DNA from: Gammaproteobacteria bacterium
GTDB lineage: Bacteria > Pseudomonadota > Gammaproteobacteria > JAPPPA01
Reading direction: 5' to 3'
DNA length: 64,000 nucleotides
Assembly: GCA_030425645.1 (NCBI GenBank)
Contig: JAUHZK010000002.1
Span: forward strand, 256,487 to 320,486
The notes beneath the pieces are model-generated. The model ran no database searches. It saw only the letters and a program-made list of their open reading frames with translations, and was not told the DNA's origin. A program made the position numbers and the translations under genes. Positions 4,965-63,566 of the stretch are shown piece after piece. Positions within the stretch are counted from its first letter, which is position 1, and each line of letters starts with the position of its first letter.

Positions 4965-5033
4965 TACAAATCTCCCATATAGGCTTGTTTTAATTGTGTT
5001 TCTAGGGAGTTATCACTCCCAAGCATGTGTCTT

Positions 5034-5051
5034 AGCATACACTTGTATGCT
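5034..5051. promoter_or_regulatory. An 18-bp palindrome AGCATACA-CT-TGTATGCT in the divergent promoter region between the hydrolase and fadE. It is a candidate operator. A second palindrome GGGAGTtatcACTCCC lies at 5005-5020.
   Basis: Read directly from the sequence. It sits about 100 bp upstream of the fadE start. Confidence 0.3.
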
Positions 5052-5148
5052 GTCGTTCAAGCGCTTGCTCTGTTAATATTGTCCGGCTTTGGAACAGCTG
5101 TCCACCGAATGCGACGGCTGTATTTTTTAATCTTTAGGAGGATTTCCT

Positions 5149-7614
5149 ATGTCAGTTGCTGCTGCTATTGCTGTAGCTGTTGCCGCGTTCTGGCTGCTAG
5201 CGTTTGTGGGCGCACCTTTATTGGTGTGGACTGCCGCTGCCGCCGCATACGTGGGCGGCTTATACGCACTGGGCACAATCGGCTCTACCGGTCTTTATAT
5301 CGGTGGCGCGGTTGTCGGCGTTCTAGTGTTCTTTAACTTGGTGCCGCTGCGTCGCGCCCTTGTTACGTCTGCCATTTTCAAAGGCTTCAAAGCTGTTCTA
5401 CCAGACATGACGTCTACCGAACGCGAAGCGCTAGAAGCTGGTGACGTATGGTGGGAAGGCGAAATGTTTCGCGGTAAGCCAGAATGGAGCAAGCTGCTAG
5501 ACTTCAAACGCACCGAGCTTACCGAGGAAGAAAAAAGCTTCCTTGCTAACGAGGTAGAAGAGCTATGCGCCATGATCGACGACTGGCAGATTCAGCACGA
5601 GCTGAAAGACATGCCAGAAGACGTATGGAACTACATCCGTAGCAAAGGCTTCTTCTCAATGCTGATCAGCAAAGAATGGGGCGGCCTTGGCTTTAGCTCT
5701 GTTGCACAATCAGCTGTAGTGACCAAAATCTCTACCAAGTCTATTGGTGTTGCCGTAACCGTAATGGTGCCTAACTCTTTAGGTCCAGGCGAGTTGCTAA
5801 TGCACTACGGTACTCAAGAGCAAAAAGAAAAATGGCTGCCTGGTCTTGCTGACGGCACCCACATCCCTTGCTTTGGCCTAACTGGCCCAGAAGCGGGCTC
5901 TGACGCTGGCGCGATTCCTGACGTAGGTATTATTTGCGAGCAAGACGGCGTATTGGGCATGAAGATCACCTTCTCCAAGCGCTACATCACCTTGGCACCG
6001 GTATCGACTGTTATTGGTCTTGCCCTTAAGTGCTACGACCCAGATGGTCTACTAGGCGATCCAAACAAAGTTGATTACGGCATCACCTGTGCGCTGATCG
6101 CTTCAGATCTTGAAGGCGTAGAAATTGGCCGCCGTCACTGGCCTTGCAACACCCCGTTCATGAACGGCCCAATCAACGGTAAAGAAATCTTTGTACCAAT
6201 CGATTCAGTGATTGGTGGAAAAGATATGGTTGGCCGCGGCTGGCGTATGCTGGTTGAGTGTCTATCAGCTGGTCGTGGTATTTCACTACCTGCACTTTCT
6301 ACCGCTGCTGGTAAAGCGTCATACATGGCTACCGGTGCTTACACTCGCGTTCGTCGTCAGTTCAAAGTATCAATCGGCCAATTTGAAGGCGTACAAGAAG
6401 CTATGGGCCGCATTGCCGGCTACGCTTATCGTCTAGAAGCAGCACGCATCCTAACCGCCTCTGCGGTTGATAACTGCTCACCGTCTGTGACCACGGCGAT
6501 TGCCAAGTACCACATGACCGACATGATGCGCGACAGCCTAACCGACGCTATGGACATCCACGGCGGTCGTGGCGTTATGCAGGGCCCACGCAACTACCTA
6601 GCGTCTAACTACCAAGGTGTACCGATTGCGATCACCGTAGAAGGTGCGAACATTCTGACCCGTAACTTGATGATCTTCGGTCAAGGCGCTATTCGCTGCC
6701 ATCCTTACGTGTTCCCAGAAATGGAAGCTGCACGTAACCCGGATGACAAAGCAGGCCTTACTGAGTTTGATAAGTTGCTATGGGGCCACATTGGTTTCTC
6801 TGTAAACCGTGGCGCACGTGCTCTAACCCTTGGCCTAACTCGCAGCCAGCTTGCTGGTAGCCCAGTTTCTGGCCCAATGGCTAAGTACTACAAGCAACTT
6901 ACTCGTTACAGCTCTGCCCTAGCGTTCGTTTCTGACGTAACCATGGGTGTGCTAGGTGGCGAACTTAAGCGTATGGAACGTCTGTCTGCTCGTTTGGGCG
7001 ACGTGCTATCTCACCTATACCTAGCGTCTGCGGTACTTAAGTACTACCAAGACGAAGGTGAGCAAGCGGTAGACCTACCGAATGCTGAGTGGGCGCTGCA
7101 AGATTCGTTGTTCAAAATTGACGAAGCTTTCCGTGAGTTCTTCCGTAACTTCCCTAACCGCCCTATCGCCGGTCTGATGAAGTTCATCGTTTTCCCTCCT
7201 CTGTCTGGACGTGCGCAGCAGCCTAGCGACAAGCTAAGCCAAACCATCGCTCTACAGATGATGGAAAACACCAACCTACGCGAGCGCTACGCAGAAGGTG
7301 TTTACACCGGCACTAAAGACGAGCCAATTGGCCGTGTTGAAGCTGCGTTCCAAATGTGCCAAACCGTTGAGCCTATCTTCAACAAGTTTGCACGCGCTGT
7401 TGCCAAGGGCAAAACCCCTGGCTGCTACGATTTGGATTCACAAATCGCTGCCTGCATTGAACAGCAAATCCTGACTCAGGAAGAAGCTGATCAAGTACGC
7501 GAGTACGACGCGCTCCGCGCTGACGCCATGTTGACTGATGCTTTCACCAAGGAATACATCCGTGGTGAGGTTAAAGTTAACGACTCAGCGACCGAGCCAG
7601 CCAAGGTTGCTTAA
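5149..7614 (+). CDS. fadE: Acyl-CoA dehydrogenase FadE.
   Basis: The 821-aa product has an N-terminal membrane segment and is colinear with E. coli FadE along its whole length (WWEGE, GANILTR, IFGQGAIRCHPY). An SD sequence AGGAGG lies upstream. Confidence 0.92.
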   Translation: MSVAAAIAVAVAAFWLLAFVGAPLLVWTAAAAAYVGGLYALGTIGSTGLYIGGAVVGVLVFFNLVPLRRALVTSAIFKGFKAVLPDMTSTEREALEAGDVWWEGEMFRGKPEWSKLLDFKRTELTEEEKSFLANEVEELCAMIDDWQIQHELKDMPEDVWNYIRSKGFFSMLISKEWGGLGFSSVAQSAVVTKISTKSIGVAVTVMVPNSLGPGELLMHYGTQEQKEKWLPGLADGTHIPCFGLTGPEAGSDAGAIPDVGIICEQDGVLGMKITFSKRYITLAPVSTVIGLALKCYDPDGLLGDPNKVDYGITCALIASDLEGVEIGRRHWPCNTPFMNGPINGKEIFVPIDSVIGGKDMVGRGWRMLVECLSAGRGISLPALSTAAGKASYMATGAYTRVRRQFKVSIGQFEGVQEAMGRIAGYAYRLEAARILTASAVDNCSPSVTTAIAKYHMTDMMRDSLTDAMDIHGGRGVMQGPRNYLASNYQGVPIAITVEGANILTRNLMIFGQGAIRCHPYVFPEMEAARNPDDKAGLTEFDKLLWGHIGFSVNRGARALTLGLTRSQLAGSPVSGPMAKYYKQLTRYSSALAFVSDVTMGVLGGELKRMERLSARLGDVLSHLYLASAVLKYYQDEGEQAVDLPNAEWALQDSLFKIDEAFREFFRNFPNRPIAGLMKFIVFPPLSGRAQQPSDKLSQTIALQMMENTNLRERYAEGVYTGTKDEPIGRVEAAFQMCQTVEPIFNKFARAVAKGKTPGCYDLDSQIAACIEQQILTQEEADQVREYDALRADAMLTDAFTKEYIRGEVKVNDSATEPAKVA

Positions 7615-11253: not shown

Positions 11254-14200
11254 CTAGCGGCGGCGCGCCCCGCCTCGGCGTCGGGCTTTAGCGCTAGCCT
11301 CACTAGCAGCCGCGGGCGCGTCCTCAGTGACCACTGCGCTTGGGCGGCCAAACTGAATAGCCGTCGCTGGGCGAGACTCAACTTTGGGTTTCTCAGGAAT
11401 AGGTTCACCGTTGATCAATGGCTCATCCCAGCTGCCAGTTAGATGGAAACGCAACACACCAAGCTCGTCAAACGGCTGCCCAAATAGCTCGTTACCCAGT
11501 AGCAGCAATGCTCCGACCCCAAGCCCGGAAACCAAAGCGCCTACCACCGCGGTCCCGCCTCCAATTTGAGGGCGTACCGTGATCCGCTGATCATAGTCTT
11601 GCTCTAATAAGCCAGCCCGACCAACAATCATGGCATCGGCACCACGAGCTTTAATTTCTAAGTTATCCGTCCACGCATTGCCGTCACTAACGGCAAAGTC
11701 GCCGGTGATTCTGTCGAAGGTAAGGCCGCTTTTGGCGATATCCGAAAAATCCAGCAACAAACGCTTAGGCAAGGTGTAAAAGCTAAATAAGCCTAAGATT
11801 CGTCCCAAGCCCGGATCCACCTGATAAATCTGGCCTTCTTCGAAATCAACCGAAAACCCACCGCTCGCCCGCTCGGCGTCAAACTGAGTCATTGGGCCAG
11901 GCCACTGTAATTTCACGTCAACATTTGCGCCTTTTGCACCGAGCACGTCAGGCAGGTCAATGCCGTTCATTACTGCATCCCAATCACCCGATGACAGTTT
12001 TACTTCTAGCTCACTGTGGTGGCCATGTTCGTAAACATCCCAGCGGCCAGAGGCGTCCAGTGCAAGCTCGCCGCCACGGCTAGTTAACCGCCGCATTACT
12101 AGGCCACTCACGCCTGGTTCGGTAACCACATCAATCTGACCTAAGCGAACGCCCATGTAGCGGCCATCACGTATCCGTGCCCGCACCACAGGTAACTCTC
12201 GCGGATCCACCGTTGACGCTGCTACTGGTGCCGGCGGACCAACAGCCTCAGCCTCAGGTGTACGCACCAAATCAGGCAAATACAAATAATCAAAATCAAC
12301 TTCAATCTGCGCGGCCAAGCGACGCTTCTGCAAGGCACGCGCCGCCTCGCCTAGATCCGCTACCTGTGCCGCACTAACCACGCTATCTGGCACCAGCACC
12401 GTGCCAGCGCCATCGGCGCTTTTCATTGTTAGCTGGGCCGCGTTTTCCTGCCGCCGGATATTAGCGTTCAAGGCCCGCCAATTGATGCCGAAGGCTCTGA
12501 ATTCGTCACTGCGCAAACTGAGATAGTCGAGAAAATCAGGCAGCAGCATGTTGCGCGCCGGCGCCGCCGCAGCCTCGGGTTGTTGCTCCGCAAACCAACT
12601 TAGCAGGTAGTCGAGGTCGCCTTTCGGCAGGTCGACAACCACGCCAATGCCATCTTCGGTTGGCAGCACGGCATTGATATTACCAACCGCGAATTCAGCC
12701 CGACGCAACTCACCATCGTCTTCATCTGCCAGCCACAAGGCGGCACCACCAAGGCCACGTGCGTTCGCGGTAACGGCCATTCCGGAACCGGCGCTGCGAT
12801 CTACAAGCAACTCGAACGGCGCTTGCCACTCAGGCCGTTTCTCGATCCCGCTTGGCCCATTAACGGCCACCCCTTCTAGGCTTGAGGTAACACGAATACG
12901 CTCGCCTGGTGCAGCGCCATCGCGGCCGCTCAAATCGACCTGTAAGGCGCTACTGCCAGACAGAATATTCAGCAGCCAATCCGGCATAAAGCGGCCCATA
13001 AATGCCTTATGCTGAGGCTGCTCATCTAAATCCAGCTGGGTTTCGGCAGTAATTAACATGTCACCGCCTACTAGACTTAAATCCAGCTGCGCCGCAGCAT
13101 CAAAGCCATGAAACTGGCCGCGGATGTCATTTGCTAAAACCCTAGCTTCGGTAAAACCAACGCGGCCATTGATATTGTCCAACGCAAGGAATTCCGAGCT
13201 GCGTAGCTTGGTGTCTTCTAGTACGAGCTCTCCATTCGCCTTTAGCCCTCCAATGTTGCTAACCGGCACATGAAGCTGCAAACTCAAGTCGGCCTCGCCA
13301 GAGGCGGACAAACCTTTTAGTAACGGCGCCACCGGCTCTTTCAGCGGCGACTGCCTTACATAGCCCAACAGTTTAGAAACCGGGGCCGTAGCCTCAGTCA
13401 CAATGTTGACATCGGTCAATCGCAGGTTGGGAATATTTACGTTTAACCGAGTCGGGACAACGCCTTCGGTCTCGGCATGAGCTACCCTCGCCATTAAACC
13501 GATATTTCGGAATAACAGCGCCGCTGTCACATTGCTTAGCGCCGGCCAATCTTCGGCAAACTCAATCGCCCCACCGCTAACATCGGCGTCAACCCGGAAG
13601 CTGCCCTCATTAGCCTCGTAAGGAAAACCCTGCAACGGGCCATCAATACCCACCTCAGCATCGACCCGCCCCGCCAGTAAAGCGCCTTGCAACCAGCTCT
13701 GCGCCGTTGCTGGCGTGAAGGCGGGGATAAAACGCTTCACCAGAGGAACCGTGCCATTTCTAACCTTTCCTTGTAGCTTAATATCACCCGCAACTTTGGG
13801 CCCACCGAGCTGGGCGTTAACCGCTACCACCACCTCAGCAGTCGCCCCTTCCTTAACTAGATTGAGGCTCGGAGCATTGATCGCCAAACCATCAATACGG
13901 CCACTGTTGTCGTCTGTTCTTCGCATCGCAATACTAAGCTGGCCGGCCACGGTATCAACGCTGCGCCGCCCCTCGTAAAGCCACGGCCAATCAATGATCA
14001 ACGAGGAACTGTCTAACTCCACATCGACGACATCATTATCTACTGTGAAACGGCCTGCCAAATTTTCAAAGCCTGGCCAGCCCTTATTCTCATCCGCAGC
14101 TCCAGCCACTTTTCCCGTGCCCCAGCCCAATTCGCTGAAAGCGCCTTTTGCCTGCGTTTTAAGCCCGCCATCGGCACTATGGGAAACATCGAACTGCTCT

Positions 14201-27043: not shown

Positions 27044-27129
27044 GTCCGCCCTTCGACAGGCTCAGGACTAACGGTGTATTGCTCTCACCGCCGTGTGAAG
27101 TTCATCCTGAGCTCGTTGAAGGACATTCG
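27044..27129. repeat. REP-like palindromic element, family copy A: left arm CCGCCCTTCGACAGGCTCAGGAC, right arm TCCTGAGCTCGTTGAAGGAC.
   Basis: Read directly. The arms are reverse complements, and homologous copies lie at 61479-61540, 63483-63566 and, as a partial copy, 30997-31016. Confidence 0.6.
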
Positions 27130-30724: not shown

Positions 30725-31063
30725 ATCTATTGCAAGGCGTTTGGTGGCGGTTTCGGCCTTTGCAGCATTACCCGTTTGCGGTAAGCGCCCAGTGCGGGCC
30801 GAGCCTATTTTGAGGCATCAAAATAGGCGAAAAATGCTTTACCCGCCGTGCGACCGCTGCGCGGTTCCTTGCGGTGCTCACTAAATCAAGCGCCTGCGGA
30901 ACTCGCTACGCTCAAACAGGCCGCAGGCTCGATCTTGATTTAGCTCCGCTCCTCAGTCGCACAAAGGGCGAAATACTGCTAACCAACTTCCCGCTCGCCC
31001 TGAGCTTGTCGAAGGGTAGCCGAGAAAGTCTTCAACACCCTTGGTAAACGCCTTGCATCTATT
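30725..31063. mobile_element. Putative non-autonomous MITE of 325 bp. It has 11-bp perfect terminal inverted repeats GCAAGGCGTTT / AAACGCCTTGC and is flanked by a 7-bp direct repeat ATCTATT.
   Basis: The TIRs are at 30732-30742 and 31046-31056. The direct repeats are at 30725-30731 and 31057-31063. Removing the element reconstitutes a bidirectional terminator (AAAAAAAGGCCCC-atctatt-GGGGCATTTTTT) about 10 bp from both convergent stop codons. Confidence 0.5.
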
Positions 31064-61112: not shown

Positions 61113-62399
61113 ATGAACCCAGCCATTAATGACCTGCACCCCTACCCGTTTCAAAAGCTAGAAAAACTACTAGCCGAAAAACCGTGGACAGGCCCAGAAC
61201 GTGGCATGGGTGAGGCGATTCGCTTAACCATTGGCGAACCACGCCACGCGCCGCCACAGTTTGTTTTGGATGTGTGGCAAAACGCCTTGCCGCAAGTAGC
61301 CAAATACCCAACCACCCTTGGTACCCCAGAGCTACGCCAAGCCATTAGCCAATGGCTAAAACAACGCTTTAACGCCGACGTGAGCGCCGCCACGCAAATC
61401 TTGCCGGTTAACGGTACACGCGAAGCGCTATTCGCCTTTGCCCAAGCGCATATCGACGCATCAACGCCTTCGCAATTGTCCCGCCCTTCGATGAACTCAG
61501 GGCTAGCGGAAAACGTTCGTCCTGAGCTTGTCGAAGGACAAACACTAGCAAACCAACCACTCGTCGCCAGTCCTAACCCCTTCTACCAAATTTACGAAGG
61601 CGCAGCCTTACTCGCCGGCGCCAAGCCCTACTTCGTTAATTGCGACGCCAGCGGTTTAGCCGACTTTGACGCCGTTAGCGCTGACGTATGGCAGCAAGTG
61701 CAACTGGTTTACGCTTGCTCTCCCGGCAACCCCACTGGCGCCGTGGTAAGCAAAGAGCAATGGCAGCGTTTAATCGCACTATCGGATGAGCACGACTTCA
61801 TCATTGCCGCCGACGAATGTTATTCCGAGATTTGGTTTGACGAACCACCGGTTGGCCTGCTGCAAGTCTGCGCCGAAATCGGCCGTAACGATTTTAAAAA
61901 CTGCCTCGTGTTCCACTCACTCAGCAAACGCTCCAACCTGCCCGGTTTACGTTCAGGTTTCGTGGCTGGTGACGCCACAGCACTGGCCAGCTTCCTTAAA
62001 TACCGCACCTACCACGGCTGCGCCATGCCTATCCCTAGCCAACTGGCCAGCATTGAAGCCTGGAACGATGAAAGCCATGTAGAAGAAAACCGCCGGCTGT
62101 ACCGCGAGAAATTCCAACGCGTATTGGAAATACTAGAACCGGTAATGCAGGTCAAAAAACCAGACGCCAGCTTCTACCTGTGGCCCACGCTTAACGATAT
62201 CTGCGGCGGTGACGACGAAGCTTTTGCGCAAGGCCTACACCATGAACAAGGCGTAACCGTGTTACCGGGTAGCTACCTCTCGCGCGACACCGACAACGGC
62301 AACCCCGGCGCGGGTCATGTGCGCATCTCACTGGTTGCCAGTGTTGAAGAATGCGTAGAGGCCGCCAATCGCATCGCCCAATTCGTTCGCACAAACTAA
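61113..62399 (+). CDS. dapC: Class I PLP aminotransferase, probably N-succinyldiaminopimelate aminotransferase DapC. It contains an in-frame palindromic-element insertion.
   Basis: The context map-glnD-dapC-dapD is Pseudomonas-type. Aminotransferase class I motifs are present (NPxNPTG, SKR). Confidence 0.7.
   Translation: MNPAINDLHPYPFQKLEKLLAEKPWTGPERGMGEAIRLTIGEPRHAPPQFVLDVWQNALPQVAKYPTTLGTPELRQAISQWLKQRFNADVSAATQILPVNGTREALFAFAQAHIDASTPSQLSRPSMNSGLAENVRPELVEGQTLANQPLVASPNPFYQIYEGAALLAGAKPYFVNCDASGLADFDAVSADVWQQVQLVYACSPGNPTGAVVSKEQWQRLIALSDEHDFIIAADECYSEIWFDEPPVGLLQVCAEIGRNDFKNCLVFHSLSKRSNLPGLRSGFVAGDATALASFLKYRTYHGCAMPIPSQLASIEAWNDESHVEENRRLYREKFQRVLEILEPVMQVKKPDASFYLWPTLNDICGGDDEAFAQGLHHEQGVTVLPGSYLSRDTDNGNPGAGHVRISLVASVEECVEAANRIAQFVRTN
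61479..61540. repeat. REP-like palindromic element, family copy C, lying in-frame within the dapC CDS. It encodes approximately SRPSMNSGLAENVRPELVEGQ.
   Basis: Left arm CCCGCCCTTCGATGAACTCAGGGCTAGCGG, loop aaaacgtt, right arm CGTCCTGAGCTTGTCGAAGGAC. The arms are homologous to those of the intergenic copies. Confidence 0.6.
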
Positions 62400-62500
62400 C
62401 CCCCTCCCTCCAAATCACATCTAGGGCCTCCCCCTCGCAGGTGGAGGGACTCTCTTACTCCCCTCTCCCTTTGAGGGAGAGGGGTTGGGGGAGAGGGTGA
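62400..62500. repeat. Cluster of G/C-rich palindromic units (BIME/REP-like) immediately downstream of dapC.
   Basis: CCCTCgcaggtgGAGGG, and CCCCTCTCCCtttgaGGGAGAGGGGttgGGGGAGAGGG. Confidence 0.5.
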
Positions 62501-62507
62501 AAACTCC

Positions 62508-62536
62508 GACCCATTTGGGACTGTCCCAAATGGGTC
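62508..62536. repeat. Perfect 29-bp palindrome GACCCATTTGGGAC-t-GTCCCAAATGGGTC, followed by TGTCCC.
   Basis: Read directly. It shares the GGGTCTGTCCC / GGGACTGTCCC motif with the inverted repeats at 7681-7754, and lies about 110 bp upstream of the dapD start. Confidence 0.5.
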
Positions 62537-62648
62537 TGTCCCAAGCTTGAATTCAATTATTTCGCTAGGCCTGTCGCTGCTTAAGCAAATCTGAGAAAAT
62601 ACGCGCCACTTATTTTTTGCCATATCAAATTTATTACTGGAGCCAGCC

Positions 62649-63482
62649 TTGTCTGACTTACAACAAATCATTGAAGAAGCCTTTGAGCGCCGCGCCGACA
62701 TTACCCCTAGCAATGTAGACGCCGACACCAAAGCCGCGATCAACCAAGCCATTGAAATGTTAGACAACGGCAGCGCGCGCGTAGCCGAGCGTGTTGGCGA
62801 CACCCAAGAATGGAAAGTAAACGAGTGGCTGAAAAAAGCCGTTCTACTTGGCTTCCGTATTGAAGACAACGCGCCTATCGACGCGGGTTACACCAAGTTT
62901 TACGACAAAGTGCCAATGAAATACGCCGACTGGACTGCCGAGCAGTTCAAAGCCAGCGGCACCCGCGTAGTACCAGACGCCATCGTACGTAAAGGCTCGT
63001 TTATTGCTGAAAACACAGTACTCATGCCTTCATACGTCAACATCGGCGCCTATGTAGACAGCGGCAGCATGGTCGACACCTGGGCCACCGTAGGCAGCTG
63101 CGCCCAAATTGGTAAAAACGTACACCTTTCTGGCGGCGTAGGCATCGGCGGCGTATTAGAGCCACTGCAAGCCAGCCCAACCATTATTGGTGACAACTGC
63201 TTTATCGGCGCCCGCTCAGAAGTAGTAGAAGGCGTGGTCGTTGAAGACAACTGCGTGATCTCTATGGGCGTATACATCGGCCAAAGCACCAAAATCTTCG
63301 ACCGCGAAACCGGCGAAGTACACTACGGCCGCGTACCACAAGGTTCGGTAGTGGTTTCTGGCAACCTACCTAGCAAAGACGGCAGCTACAGCCTGTACTG
63401 CGCCGTGATTGTTAAAAAAGTAGACGCCAAAACGCTAAGCAAAACTGGCCTTAACGACCTACTACGTTCAATCGACGAGTAG
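62649..63482 (+). CDS. dapD: 2,3,4,5-tetrahydropyridine-2,6-dicarboxylate N-succinyltransferase.
   Basis: [20 protein letters not shown] aligns to the E. coli DapD N-terminus. There are hexapeptide repeats and a TTG start with SD GGAG. Confidence 0.9.
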
Positions 63483-63566
63483 CCCTTCGACTCTTCGACA
63501 AGCTCAGAGCTAGGGCGAACGGTAGCAATCCGCTAGTCCTGAGCCCGTCGAAGGACGGAACCCGTT
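63483..63566. repeat. REP-like palindromic element, family copy D, directly after the dapD stop.
   Basis: Left arm CTTCGACAAGCTCAGAGCTAGGGCGAACGG, right arm CCGCTAGTCCTGAGCCCGTCGAAGGAC. Confidence 0.6.

What the first reader, a model, noticed from the sequence alone, without database searches (positions are those of the whole stretch)
61479..61540. A palindromic REP/MITE-like element sits in-frame inside the dapC coding sequence
The dapC ORF contains about 62 bp whose two arms are reverse complements of each other (CCCTTCGATGAACTCAGGGCTAGCGG and CGTCCTGAGCTTGTCGAAGGAC). These arms are clearly homologous to intergenic hairpin elements at 27044-27129, 63483-63566 and 30997-31016. The segment translates without stops as SRPSMNSGLAENVRPELVEGQ. 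It lies where class I aminotransferases normally have a short loop before the conserved PNPFYQIYEGAAL block. This is the pattern known for Rickettsia palindromic elements and Neisseria Correia elements. In those cases a selfish hairpin element inserts in-frame and adds a peptide loop to an essential enzyme. That behaviour has not been described for this repeat family.
Basis: partly seen in the sequence, partly recalled or inferred. Interest (0 to 1): 0.7.

Follow-up and report, generated by a model that had tools for sequence, protein, structure and literature searches.

The report
REP-like hairpin inserted inside dapC
A small palindromic repeat that normally sits between genes has landed in-frame inside the lysine-pathway gene dapC, adding a floppy 28-residue loop; this is real, but it is a new example of a known phenomenon, not a new kind of biology.

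Summary
dapC (61113-62399, TIGR03538 equivalog) contains a 53-nt hairpin at 61485-61537 (RNA MFE -33.3 kcal/mol, z -5.2). Its arms match intergenic repeats at 27044-27129, 30992-31017 and 63483-63566. A 92%-identical strain lacks exactly 28 codons at this spot. The extra residues model as a disordered loop (pLDDT <50 only at 121-145), while the rest superposes on PDB 3JTX at 1.6 Å. The identical insert-bearing protein was read on 21 contigs, from several sources and samples, so an assembly artefact is very unlikely.

The element is a REP-type inverted doublet. Each unit is a short covarying stem closing a conserved 13-nt loop, TGAGCYYGTCGAA. The same 19-mer occurs in genomes of many phyla. I found no paper or Rfam family that describes it.

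A sister strain carries a different palindromic repeat in the same DapC loop. Two neighbouring intergenic spacers likewise hold one family, the other, or neither.

In-frame REP singles and dimers encoding 20-30 aa are already catalogued (Di Nocera 2013; Rickettsia RPEs). My verdict is a new member of a known kind. No transposase or target duplication was found, so how it moves remains inferred.

The parts
61113..62399 (+). dapC (succinyldiaminopimelate transaminase), 428 aa, the host gene of the insert
   Evidence: ORF listed. NCBIfam TIGR03538 DapC_gpp equivalog, 601 bits against a cutoff of 474.6, covering the full 395-position profile. Gene order glnD-dapC-dapD-arsC. The model superposes on PDB 3JTX with target-normalised TM 0.95 and rmsd 1.6 Å.
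61464..61559 (+). Allele-variable loop segment (residues 118-149): 96 nt here against 12 nt in the empty allele, a net +84 nt or +28 aa, in frame
   Evidence: Protein and DNA alignments with P0002/L001 (empty), P0001/L002 (same insert), P0122/L129 (a different repeat) and P0003/L005 (a third insert). AlphaFold pLDDT is below 50 only at residues 121-145. The alignment to PDB 3JTX breaks at query 114-148 against chain 112-120.
61478..61540 (+). Core of the repeat (called F1 here): an inverted doublet of two hairpin units. Left unit 61483-61503 (GCCC-TTCGATGAACTCA-GGGC) with tail to 61509; 4-nt centre AAAA at 61510-61513; right unit 61514-61539 (CGTTC-GTCC-TGAGCTTGTCGAA-GGAC). The long hairpin spans 61485-61537.
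   Evidence: Positions 61496-61541 are identical over 46 nt to the L002 copy even though the two lineages differ at 16.5% of sites.
27044..27129 (.). Intergenic F1 doublet between divergent genes; loops at 27052-27064 (-) and 27108-27120 (+)
   Evidence: Folds at -35.8 kcal/mol, z -3.8. Flanking ORFs.
30992..31017 (+). Solo F1 unit between convergent genes
   Evidence: No partner arm, and the region does not fold better than shuffles (z +0.39).
63483..63566 (.). Intergenic F1 doublet directly after the dapD stop codon; loops at 63494-63506 (-) and 63540-63552 (+)
   Evidence: Folds at -32.5 kcal/mol, z -2.7. The orthologous spacer is empty in L005 and holds the second repeat family in L129.
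62461..62505 (+). Copy of a second palindromic repeat family (called F2 here: CCCCTCTCCCTTTGAGGGAGAGGGGTTGGGGGAGAGGGTGAAAAC) in the dapC-dapD spacer. This family occupies the DapC loop in the sister strain L129.
   Evidence: F2 in the L129 dapC loop forms a 12-bp perfect stem, -39.6 kcal/mol, z -3.4.

Best explanation
A REP-type palindromic repeat became part of the dapC reading frame. It is an inverted doublet of two about 25-nt hairpin units, the arrangement known as a REP dimer or REPIN. The insertion is a multiple of three, and the frame it landed in has no stop codon. It also fell in a short connector between a helix and a strand of the large PLP-binding domain. The enzyme therefore keeps its fold and carries 28 extra residues as a disordered loop. 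Shown here: the insert is repeat-derived, it is absent from the closest relative listed, it is in frame, it occupies a normally short loop, and the gene has stayed intact in two lineages that differ at about 16% of nucleotides. Inferred: the copy arrived by transposition of the doublet by a trans-acting enzyme (for REPs, a RAYT-type Y1 transposase), and it is neutral or slightly deleterious passenger DNA rather than an adaptation. The same loop carries a different palindromic repeat in a sister strain and a third insert in another relative. So the loop is a permissive site, and possibly a preferred one, where such insertions survive selection.
For: The hairpin and the motif enrichment are real. 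The empty allele P0002/L001, at 92% nt identity, lacks exactly 28 codons. The same insert, with an identical centre and right arm, is present in L002/L003/L004 from a lineage 83.5% identical in nt, with a near-perfect hairpin of -42.5 kcal/mol. The exact 428-aa protein was read on 21 contigs from several sources (JGI, Logan, NCBI) and several samples. AlphaFold gives mean pLDDT 88.9, with only residues 121-145 below 50. Foldseek gives TM 0.95 and 1.6 Å to 3JTX. The gene scores 601 bits on the DapC_gpp equivalog. The unit is a genuine hairpin family. Over 89 units, covariation is 0.446 against 0.20 for shuffles (0 of 500 reach it) and at most 0.15 for slid controls, with CG-to-GC flips in the closing pairs. 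The 19-mer occurs in at least 119 stretches of DNA from genomes of many phyla. Copies also lie in frame inside Pfam-confirmed glyS, ubiE, atpC and nrdJ genes of other taxa. There is precedent for REP dimers inside ORFs encoding 20-30 aa, and for different REPs at the same site of one gene (PMC3733652).
Against: I found no transposase. A tblastn search with seven RAYT/TIRYT sequences against the window plus 129 loci (1.0 Mb) hit only L037, 3 kb from a motif copy. No target-site duplication is visible. The sequences flanking the core (61464-61477 and 61541-61559) do not match the empty allele, whose 12 nt appear to be replaced rather than split. No sibling copy of this compact doublet was found, but that scan also missed the dapC copies themselves, so the collection evidently lacks this lineage. 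The tree ((window,(L129,L001)),(L002,L005)) carries the states F1, F2, empty, F1, other. That pattern needs several gains, losses, replacements or allele transfers, and I could not resolve the order. The 46-nt run identical between the window and L002 is the third longest in 3.9 kb, behind two runs in glnD, one of which encodes the HD-domain motif HDIGKGRGGDH. This hints at constraint or gene conversion rather than pure neutrality.
Confidence: 0.85

Rival explanations
1. The insert has been domesticated. The hairpin (as an mRNA processing, pausing or stabilising element within the glnD-dapC-dapD transcript, or as a protein-binding DNA site) or the added peptide loop is maintained by selection.
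For: The centre and right arm are identical over 46 nt between lineages that differ at 16.5% of sites, while the flanks of the insert have diverged heavily (8 of 28 residues differ, all in the flanks and left arm). The L002 copy is a near-perfect 19-bp hairpin. Three of the four substitutions in the window's left arm are transitions that keep G-U or A-U pairing (read).
Against: The nearest relatives lack it (L001) or carry an unrelated repeat there (L129). The window copy has lost pairing relative to L002 (-33.3 against -42.5 kcal/mol). Three of four pairing-compatible transitions is not significant. Homogeneity among repeat copies can also come from gene conversion. The peptide is predicted to be disordered.
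Confidence: 0.1
2. The copy did not arrive by transposition. It came by recombination: a templated patch or gene conversion from another genomic copy of the repeat, or exchange of whole alleles between strains. Palindromes at a few fragile sites would then be swapped repeatedly between the two repeat families.
For: Three orthologous sites each hold F1, F2 or nothing in relatives that are 83-94% identical: the DapC loop, the dapC-dapD spacer and the dapD-arsC spacer. There is no target duplication, and the empty allele's 12 nt are replaced rather than split. The insert distribution conflicts with the strain tree. GGTGA is shared between the F2 right end and the empty allele.
Against: The window resembles L001 and L129, not L002, right up to the insert on both sides (0.88-0.97 against 0.70-0.81 identity per 100 nt), so there is no sign of a long imported tract. 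The cross-phylum spread of one 19-mer is easier to explain with an active mobilisation mechanism. This rival concerns the route of arrival only and is compatible with the main statement.
Confidence: 0.2
3. The segment is ancestral DapC sequence, and the intergenic look-alikes are decayed dapC fragments.
For: Nothing beyond the shared sequence itself.
Against: Only 5 of the 67 DapC sequences I aligned carry any insert at this loop, and the consensus loop is 3-4 residues. The identical motif occurs in genomes of many phyla next to unrelated genes. The intergenic copies share only the palindrome and no flanking dapC sequence.
Confidence: 0.01
4. The insert is an assembly or sequencing artefact, such as a chimeric join at a repeat.
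For: Repeats are common sites of misassembly.
Against: The exact 428-aa protein was read on 21 contigs from several sources (JGI, Logan, NCBI) and several samples, on contigs up to 328 kb. A diverged lineage carries the same insert on three further contigs. The reading frame is preserved.
Confidence: 0.01

Closest known systems
Intragenic REPs and REP dimers of the GTAG- and CGTC-tagged superfamilies (Di Nocera, De Gregorio and Rocco 2013, BMC Genomics 14:522, PMC3733652)
   Same: Short palindromic units that are mostly extragenic and often sit just after stop codons. They commonly occur as inverted (head-head) dimers that can fold into a larger hairpin. G-T pairs in the stems are frequent. 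Some copies lie wholly inside ORFs, and dimers there encode 20-30 aa. Different REPs occupy about the same site of recB in two Xanthomonas species. [quoted passage not shown] Many F1 units start with TGTC/CCTC/CGTC followed by AT(CC), like the CGTC tag plus AT stem start, and the unit length (about 21 nt plus tail) is similar.
   Different: F1 has a 4-8 bp stem closing a strictly conserved 13-nt loop (TGAGCYYGTCGAA), instead of an 8-9 bp stem with a 4-5 nt loop. I saw no CCA tail. Its characteristic peptides (PELVEG, LRQAQ, LSLSK, FDKLR) are absent from that paper's list of intragenic REPs. It appears in more phyla than the 5 reported for CGTC REPs.
Rickettsia palindromic elements (RPE; Ogata et al. 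2000, as cited in PMC3184786 and PMC3733652)
   Same: A palindromic repeat inserted in frame in housekeeping genes, adding a peptide segment without destroying the protein. According to PMC3733652, RPE-4 and RPE-6 are themselves CGTC-type REPs.
   Different: RPEs are about 105-146 bp (Table 1 of PMC3184786) and were described in Rickettsia. This insert is 63 nt of recognisable repeat (84 nt net) in a free-living-type gammaproteobacterial MAG lineage. I made no sequence comparison with RPEs.
REPINs with RAYT transposases (Bertels and Rainey; PMC8049555, PMC5581495), and E. coli BIMEs
   Same: The mobile unit is proposed to be an inverted REP doublet forming a long hairpin, with singlets as remnants. 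Occupancy of orthologous spacers varies between strains.
   Different: No RAYT was found in the window or in the 1.0 Mb of loci examined. REPIN families are usually specific to a species or genus, whereas this unit's 19-mer is shared across phyla.
Bacterial MITEs found intragenically (Correia/CREE, ERIC/RU-1, RU-2, RU-3; Delihas 2007 PMC2759123; Delihas 2011 PMC3184786)
   Same: Small non-autonomous inverted-repeat elements that fold into long hairpins and are sometimes fused in frame to ORFs.
   Different: MITEs are typically 100-400 bp, have terminal inverted repeats matching an IS, and have target-site duplications (TA for Correia and ERIC). This element is shorter, shows no duplication, and is built from two REP-like hairpin units.

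Membership tests
REP / REP doublet (REPIN, BIME-like) | Unit is a short (20-40 bp) imperfect palindrome forming a stem-loop | tested here: met
   The unit is a 4-8 bp stem, a 13-nt loop and a short tail. Over 89 units, 71.5% of cells are paired against 55.9% in shuffles, and covariation is 0.446 against 0.20 (0 of 500 shuffles reach it), with slid controls at most 0.15. Caveat: the seed pattern fixed the two closing pairs for one unit per locus.
REP / REP doublet (REPIN, BIME-like) | Many dispersed, mostly extragenic copies within one genome | tested here: inconclusive
   The 13-nt loop pattern hits the 64-kb window 7 times against 0.49 expected. Six hits lie in the four element loci, three of which are intergenic. 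Further copies lie in spacers of L002 and L005. No whole genome of this lineage was available for a census.
REP / REP doublet (REPIN, BIME-like) | Units frequently paired in inverted orientation, able to form a longer hairpin | tested here: met
   Three of the four loci in the window are inverted doublets with significant folding. Many doublets occur in Caulobacter, Novosphingobium and other loci.
REP / REP doublet (REPIN, BIME-like) | A cognate RAYT (Y1/HUH transposase) gene flanked by the repeats | tested here: inconclusive
   tblastn with 7 RAYT/TIRYT sequences taken from PMC3733652 Additional file 5 gave no hit in the window. The single hit, in L037, is 3 kb from a motif copy and not flanked by units. 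RAYTs are single-copy genes, so absence from 64 kb says little.
CGTC-tagged REP superfamily (Di Nocera 2013) | Unpaired CGTC (or TGTC/CCTC) tag at one end, followed by a stem starting with AT | tested here: inconclusive
   Many family members read TGTC-ATCC, CCTC-ATCC or CGCTC-ATCC. The dapC copy reads CGTTC-GTCC, where CGTC overlaps the stem. Figure 2 of the paper, which holds the consensus sequences, was not available for direct comparison.
CGTC-tagged REP superfamily (Di Nocera 2013) | Stem of 8-9 bp and loop of 4-5 nt, with tail fitting CCA | tested here: not met
   The loop is 13 nt and invariant in sequence. Only the inner 4 pairs are consistently formed (82-98% of sequences), and the outer pairs form in 40-63%. 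No CCA tail is present.
MITE | Terminal inverted repeats plus a target-site duplication, typically 100-400 bp, with ends related to an IS | tested here: not met
   Inverted arms are present, but no direct repeat flanks the insert when it is compared with the empty allele. The recognisable element is 63 nt. No IS with these ends was seen.
Rickettsia palindromic elements (RPE) | Sequence membership in RPE-1 to RPE-8 | not tested
Only the behaviour (in-frame insertion adding a peptide loop) is shared.
DapC_gpp (TIGR03538), the host gene | Full-length match above the equivalog cutoff | tested here: met
   601 bits against a cutoff of 474.6; protein residues 1-425 match profile positions 1-395 of 395.

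The most novel reading that the evidence does not exclude
The hairpin unit, with its invariant 13-nt loop TGAGCYYGTCGAA and covarying stem, is a cosmopolitan and so far undescribed element shared almost unchanged by genomes of many phyla. It and a second, unrelated palindromic family replace one another at the same chromosomal addresses, including inside a protein loop. That would imply a site- or structure-directed insertion or exchange mechanism, or a conserved host factor that recognises the loop, rather than random transposition followed by selection.
Probability: 0.15. Interest if true: 0.7.

Novelty: new member of a known kind. Interest (0 to 1): 0.4.

Why it matters
The finding gives a clean natural experiment. 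Closely related environmental strains carry four different versions of one enzyme loop: empty, repeat family 1, repeat family 2, and a third insert. This shows how palindromic repeats create protein length variation in a core biosynthetic enzyme without breaking it. It marks the helix-102-113 to strand-150-155 connector of DapC-type aminotransferases as insertion-tolerant. It is also a warning for annotation and for homology-based loop modelling, since the PELVEG, LRQAQ, LSLSK and FDKLR peptides are repeat read-through, not protein motifs. The wider question of why one 19-mer is shared across phyla, and what moves it, goes beyond this locus and can be tested with complete genomes.

Tried and rejected
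1. Literature search for the repeat itself. The peptide strings PELVEG, FDKLR, LSLSKH and LRQAQ gave only unrelated hits. Four 14-nt DNA strings gave 0 papers.
2. Rfam. There was no hit in the window at gathering thresholds. In five loci holding canonical copies, no hit at E<=1 covered the hairpin as a described family: the only two hits were a tmRNA 3' fragment beside and overlapping a unit in L027, and a chance-level sRNA match (E 0.57) in L032.
3. Metagenome scan for sibling copies of the compact doublet centre gave 0 hits. The pattern also failed to recover the known dapC copies, so the collection does not hold this lineage and the result is uninformative.
4. Protein-database search with the insert peptide. 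A 43-aa tandem version found only 7 word-sharing candidates and none scored.
5. RAYT/TIRYT search found no association.
6. The Caulobacter 'CIR' repeats (Chen and Shapiro 2003) may correspond to the about 100-nt Caulobacter doublets seen, but the paper is not held, so this is untested.
7. ARAGORN found no tRNA or tmRNA gene in L027.
8. I tried to show that the glyS, ubiE and atpC copies are insertions by comparing them with solved structures. glyS (+5 aa) and atpC (+8-9 aa) show extra residues. ubiE does not, because yeast Coq5 has a loop of similar length.
9. I rejected an intein, an intron and translational bypass. The segment is 84 nt, in frame and free of stops, and it has no matching features.
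Full report
**Observation**

The window encodes a 428-aa ORF at 61113-62399. It is a full-length member of the DapC_gpp equivalog TIGR03538, scoring 601 bits against a cutoff of 474.6 over a 395-position profile. It sits in the order glnD-dapC-dapD-arsC.

Inside the ORF, the repeat finder reports 24-nt arms at 61485-61508 and 61514-61537, 75% complementary and 5 nt apart. As RNA, 61473-61556 folds into a single long hairpin of -33.3 kcal/mol. Shuffles give -17.5 +/- 3.0 (z -5.2, 0 of 200 as good).

The 13-nt core TGAGCYYGTYGAA hits seven times against 0.49 expected, and six of those hits lie in the four element loci. The segment reads through as ...SRPSMNSGLAENVRPELVEGQ....

**Is it an insertion?**

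Of 8000 DapC homologues scored, the closest listed fall into two small clades.

- P0002 (contig L001; 96-97% aa and 92% nt identity) reads HIDAS-AGDA-LVASP. The window has 32 residues between S117 and L150, a net gain of 28 codons or 84 nt.
- P0001 (L002-L004, including GCA_028817755.1, annotated 'MAG: Gammaproteobacteria bacterium') belongs to the other clade, at 83.5% nt identity. It carries the same insert at the same place, with an identical centre and right arm and a nearly perfect hairpin of -42.5 kcal/mol, z -7.5.
- In a 66-sequence alignment the loop is otherwise 3-4 residues long. Only the window, P0001, P0003 and P0047 have extra residues there.

The exact 428-aa protein was read on 21 contigs from several sources (JGI, Logan, NCBI) and several samples, on contigs up to 328 kb. 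An assembly artefact is therefore very unlikely.

**Where it sits in the protein**

An AlphaFold2 model built on the 66-sequence alignment has mean pLDDT 88.9. The only segment below 50 is 121-145, a coil between helix 102-113 and strand 150-155. The model superposes on the N. meningitidis aminotransferase 3JTX with target-normalised TM 0.95, rmsd 1.6 Å and 48% identity. The sequence alignment to 3JTX breaks at query 114-148 against chain 112-120.

The insert is therefore an unstructured addition to a normally short connector, and the rest of the fold is unchanged. From general knowledge of fold-type I aminotransferases, this connector lies at the far end of the helix whose N-terminus binds the PLP phosphate. 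I could not measure its distance from the active site or the dimer interface because model coordinates are not returned.

**What the element is**

I call this family F1. The dapC element is an inverted doublet of two units. Each unit is itself a small hairpin: a short stem (GTCC/GGAC in the right unit, GCCC/GGGC in the left) closing a 13-nt loop, TGAGCYYGTCGAA (TTCGACRRGCTCA on the other strand), with a short tail (CGTTC / TAGCGG).

By their record titles these come from:

- Sphingomonadales, Caulobacterales and other Alphaproteobacteria
- Beta-, Gamma- and Deltaproteobacteria
- Dehalococcoidia, SAR202 and other Chloroflexota
- Bacteroidota and Acidobacteriota
- Eremiobacterota and Vulcanimicrobiota
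- Treponema, Verrucomicrobiota and an actinobacterium (Microlunatus)
- Patescibacteria, Dependentiae, Zixibacteria, Marinimicrobia and Wallbacteria

In these loci the motif occurs as solo units, often just after a stop codon, and as inverted doublets about 100 nt long.

Across 218 occurrences the three loop-closing pairs are about 95% Watson-Crick, with CG-to-GC flips. The fourth pair is A·C in 93 cases and G-C in 86 on the TGAGC strand, which means G·U on the TTCGAC strand. A formal count on 89 units gives a covariation score of 0.446 against 0.20 for shuffles (0 of 500 reach it) and at most 0.15 for slid controls. One caveat applies: the seed pattern fixed the two closing pairs for one unit per locus.

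The unit is thus a real stem-loop whose loop sequence, not its stem, is conserved. Its single-stranded form is best on the TTCGAC strand.

Nothing in Rfam matches it. No paper in the searchable library contains its sequence or its typical read-through peptides in a relevant context.

**Relation to known repeats**

Di Nocera et al. 2013 (PMC3733652) sorted REPs into GTAG- and CGTC-tagged superfamilies and reported the following.

- REPs lie mostly downstream of ORFs and often form head-head dimers.
- G-T pairs in the stems are frequent.
- REPs occur 'entirely located within ORFs'. [quoted passage not shown]
- Different REPs occupy about the same site of recB in two Xanthomonas species.
- RPE-4 and RPE-6 of Rickettsia are CGTC REPs, and CGTC REPs lack a dedicated transposase.

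Their supplementary list includes many metabolic enzymes.

F1 shares several features with this group: the (C/T)GTC or CCTC start followed by AT(CC), the overall unit length, and the dimer habit. It fails the stem and loop definition, which requires an 8-9 bp stem and a 4-5 nt loop where F1 has a conserved 13-nt loop. Its peptides are absent from their list. I therefore treat it as REP-type, possibly a relative of the CGTC superfamily, but not as a demonstrated member.

I did not find it described for this family.

**Mobility**

This part is inferred. A tblastn search with seven RAYT/TIRYT sequences against the window plus 129 loci (1.0 Mb) gave one hit, in L037, 3 kb from a motif copy and not flanked by units. 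No target-site duplication is visible.

The 14 nt to the left and 19 nt to the right of the recognisable core do not match the empty allele, whose four codons (GCC GGT GAT GCC) appear to be replaced rather than split. Attempts to find sibling copies of this compact doublet failed for technical reasons.

**An unexpected pattern among relatives**

Nucleotide identity over glnD plus dapC gives the tree ((window,(L129,L001)),(L002,L005)). Identity is 92-94% within the first clade, 91% within the second, and about 83.5% between them.

| Site | window | L129 | L001 | L002 | L005 |
|---|---|---|---|---|---|
| DapC loop | F1 | F2 | empty | F1 | third insert (14 extra aa) |
| dapC-dapD spacer | F2 | F2 | F2 | F1 | F1 |
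| dapD-arsC spacer | F1 doublet | F2 | contig ends | half an F1 plus other sequence | empty |

F2 is a second palindromic family. In the L129 DapC loop it reads CCCCTCTCCCCTCGAGGGGAGAGGGGTTGGGGAGAGGGGTGA, encodes SPSPLEGRGVGERGEK, and forms a 12-bp perfect stem at -39.6 kcal/mol. It also lies in the window at 62461-62505.

Three addresses, one of them inside a protein, thus hold either family or nothing. This fits two readings: permissive hot spots with rapid turnover, as known for BIMEs and REPs, or a targeted or recombinational exchange. The loop states cannot be explained by one gain and one loss, and I could not order the events.

Sliding identity shows that the window resembles its own clade right up to the insert on both sides, so no long imported tract is evident.

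The 46 nt covering the centre and right arm (61496-61541) are identical between the window and L002. This is the third-longest identical run in 3.9 kb, behind two runs in glnD, one of which encodes the HD-domain motif HDIGKGRGGDH. The flanks of the insert, by contrast, have diverged strongly. This points to constraint on the repeat or homogenisation by gene conversion, and it remains unexplained.

**In-frame copies elsewhere**

Among 219 motif occurrences in the fetched loci, 44 have at least 60 open codons on both sides, although many of these are spurious frames in high-GC DNA. Pfam-confirmed genes carrying the motif in frame include:

- glyS (Sphingomonadaceae, L014, ...GVLRQAQDQPE...)
- ubiE (Lysobacterales, L070)
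- atpC (Eremiobacterota, L126)
- the C-terminal linker of a class II ribonucleotide reductase (Dehalococcoidia, L022)

Compared with solved homologues, glyS has about 5 extra residues and atpC has 8-9 extra residues at the motif. The ubiE comparison is inconclusive. So dapC is not an isolated case for this family.

**Verdict**

It is a new member of a known kind: a REP-type palindromic doublet read through as a protein loop.

Its added value lies in three things: the four-allele natural series at one enzyme loop, the alternation of two repeat families at the same addresses, and the cross-phylum identity of the hairpin loop. How the element moves and why its loop sequence is so conserved remain open questions. 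Interest is moderate (0.4).

Noticed in passing
L129:10352-10405 (dapC loop of a sister strain); window 62461-62505; L129:11306-11350 and 12349-12392; L001:4265-4305: A second, unrelated palindromic repeat family (F2: CCCCTCTCCC-N3/4-GGGAGAGGGG TTGGGGGAGAGGGTGA) occupies the same DapC loop in strain L129, in frame, as SPSPLEGRGVGERGEK. It also lies in the dapC-dapD spacer of the window.
   Followed up: partly
window 62400-62650 and 63483-63566, compared with L002:4282-4390 and 5222-5372, L005:4246-4352 and 5186-5255, L129:11243-11478 and 12312-12455: Two intergenic spacers next to dapC hold F1, F2 or no repeat in relatives that are 83-94% identical. Together with the DapC loop, that makes three addresses where the two families alternate.
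   Followed up: partly
L010-L128 (genome-contig scan): The exact 19-mer CCTGAGCYYGTCGAAGGAC, often within a 27-mer CCGTTCGTCCTGAGCTTGTCGAAGGAC, occurs in genomes of many phyla, from Patescibacteria and Dependentiae to Bacteroidota, Chloroflexota and Proteobacteria. No description of it was found in Rfam or in the searchable literature.
   Followed up: partly
alignment A7; all TGAGCYYGTCGAA occurrences in L010-L128: The fourth stem pair is A·C in 93 of 218 units on the TGAGC strand, which is G·U on the TTCGAC strand. This suggests the folded single strand (RNA or ssDNA) is the TTCGAC strand.
   Followed up: yes
L014:5256 (glyS), L070:2862 (ubiE), L126:2919 (atpC), L022:3143 (nrdJ), L037:1079 (large repeat protein), L038:5955 (after a lipoprotein-like signal peptide): Solo F1 units lie in frame inside genes of other phyla and read as VLRQAQD..., VRPEPVEG or PSTGSG. 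Pfam confirms glyS, ubiE, atpC and nrdJ; the L038 ORF has no Pfam match and the L037 ORF was not scanned.
   Followed up: partly
window 61496-61541 compared with L002:3372-3417: The centre and right arm of the dapC element are identical over 46 nt between lineages that differ at 16.5% of sites. This is the third-longest identical run in 3.9 kb, while the flanks of the insert are highly diverged.
   Followed up: partly
L005:3340-3400 (P0003) and P0047: Two further DapC alleles carry unrelated 13-14 aa inserts at the same loop: FRTQRSGDPESPTDY, with a small inverted repeat ATTCCGGA/TCCGGAAT, and QQDGQRGTPLNRPPD. Their origin was not determined, and the L005 segment does not fold better than shuffles (z -0.9).
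   Followed up: partly
L027:4470-4531: An F1 unit directly abuts a fragment matching the 3' end of tmRNA (RF00023, 22.5 bits, E 2.6e-5, below gathering score). ARAGORN finds no intact gene, so this may be an att-site remnant of an integrated element.
   Followed up: partly
L013:5290-5420, L048:5540-5600, L044:3000-3100 and 5000-5090, L035:5300-5360: In Dehalococcoidia, Bacteroidota, Eremiobacterota and Acidobacteriota loci, partial F1 units form short tandem arrays such as (GTCGTCCTGAGCTT)n and repeated GTCATCCTGAGC. This suggests slippage or serial partial insertion.
   Followed up: no
window 62505-62545: A further small inverted repeat, GACCCATTTGGGAC / GTCCCAAATGGGTC, lies just downstream of the F2 copy in the dapC-dapD spacer. 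It was not analysed.
   Followed up: no
L031, L083, L087, L103, L125 (Caulobacter loci): Conserved doublets of about 100 nt in which each F1 unit is extended to an 8-bp stem flanked by an A-tract and a T-tract (GAAAACCTCGCCC...GGGTGAGGTTTTC), resembling a bidirectional terminator.
   Followed up: no
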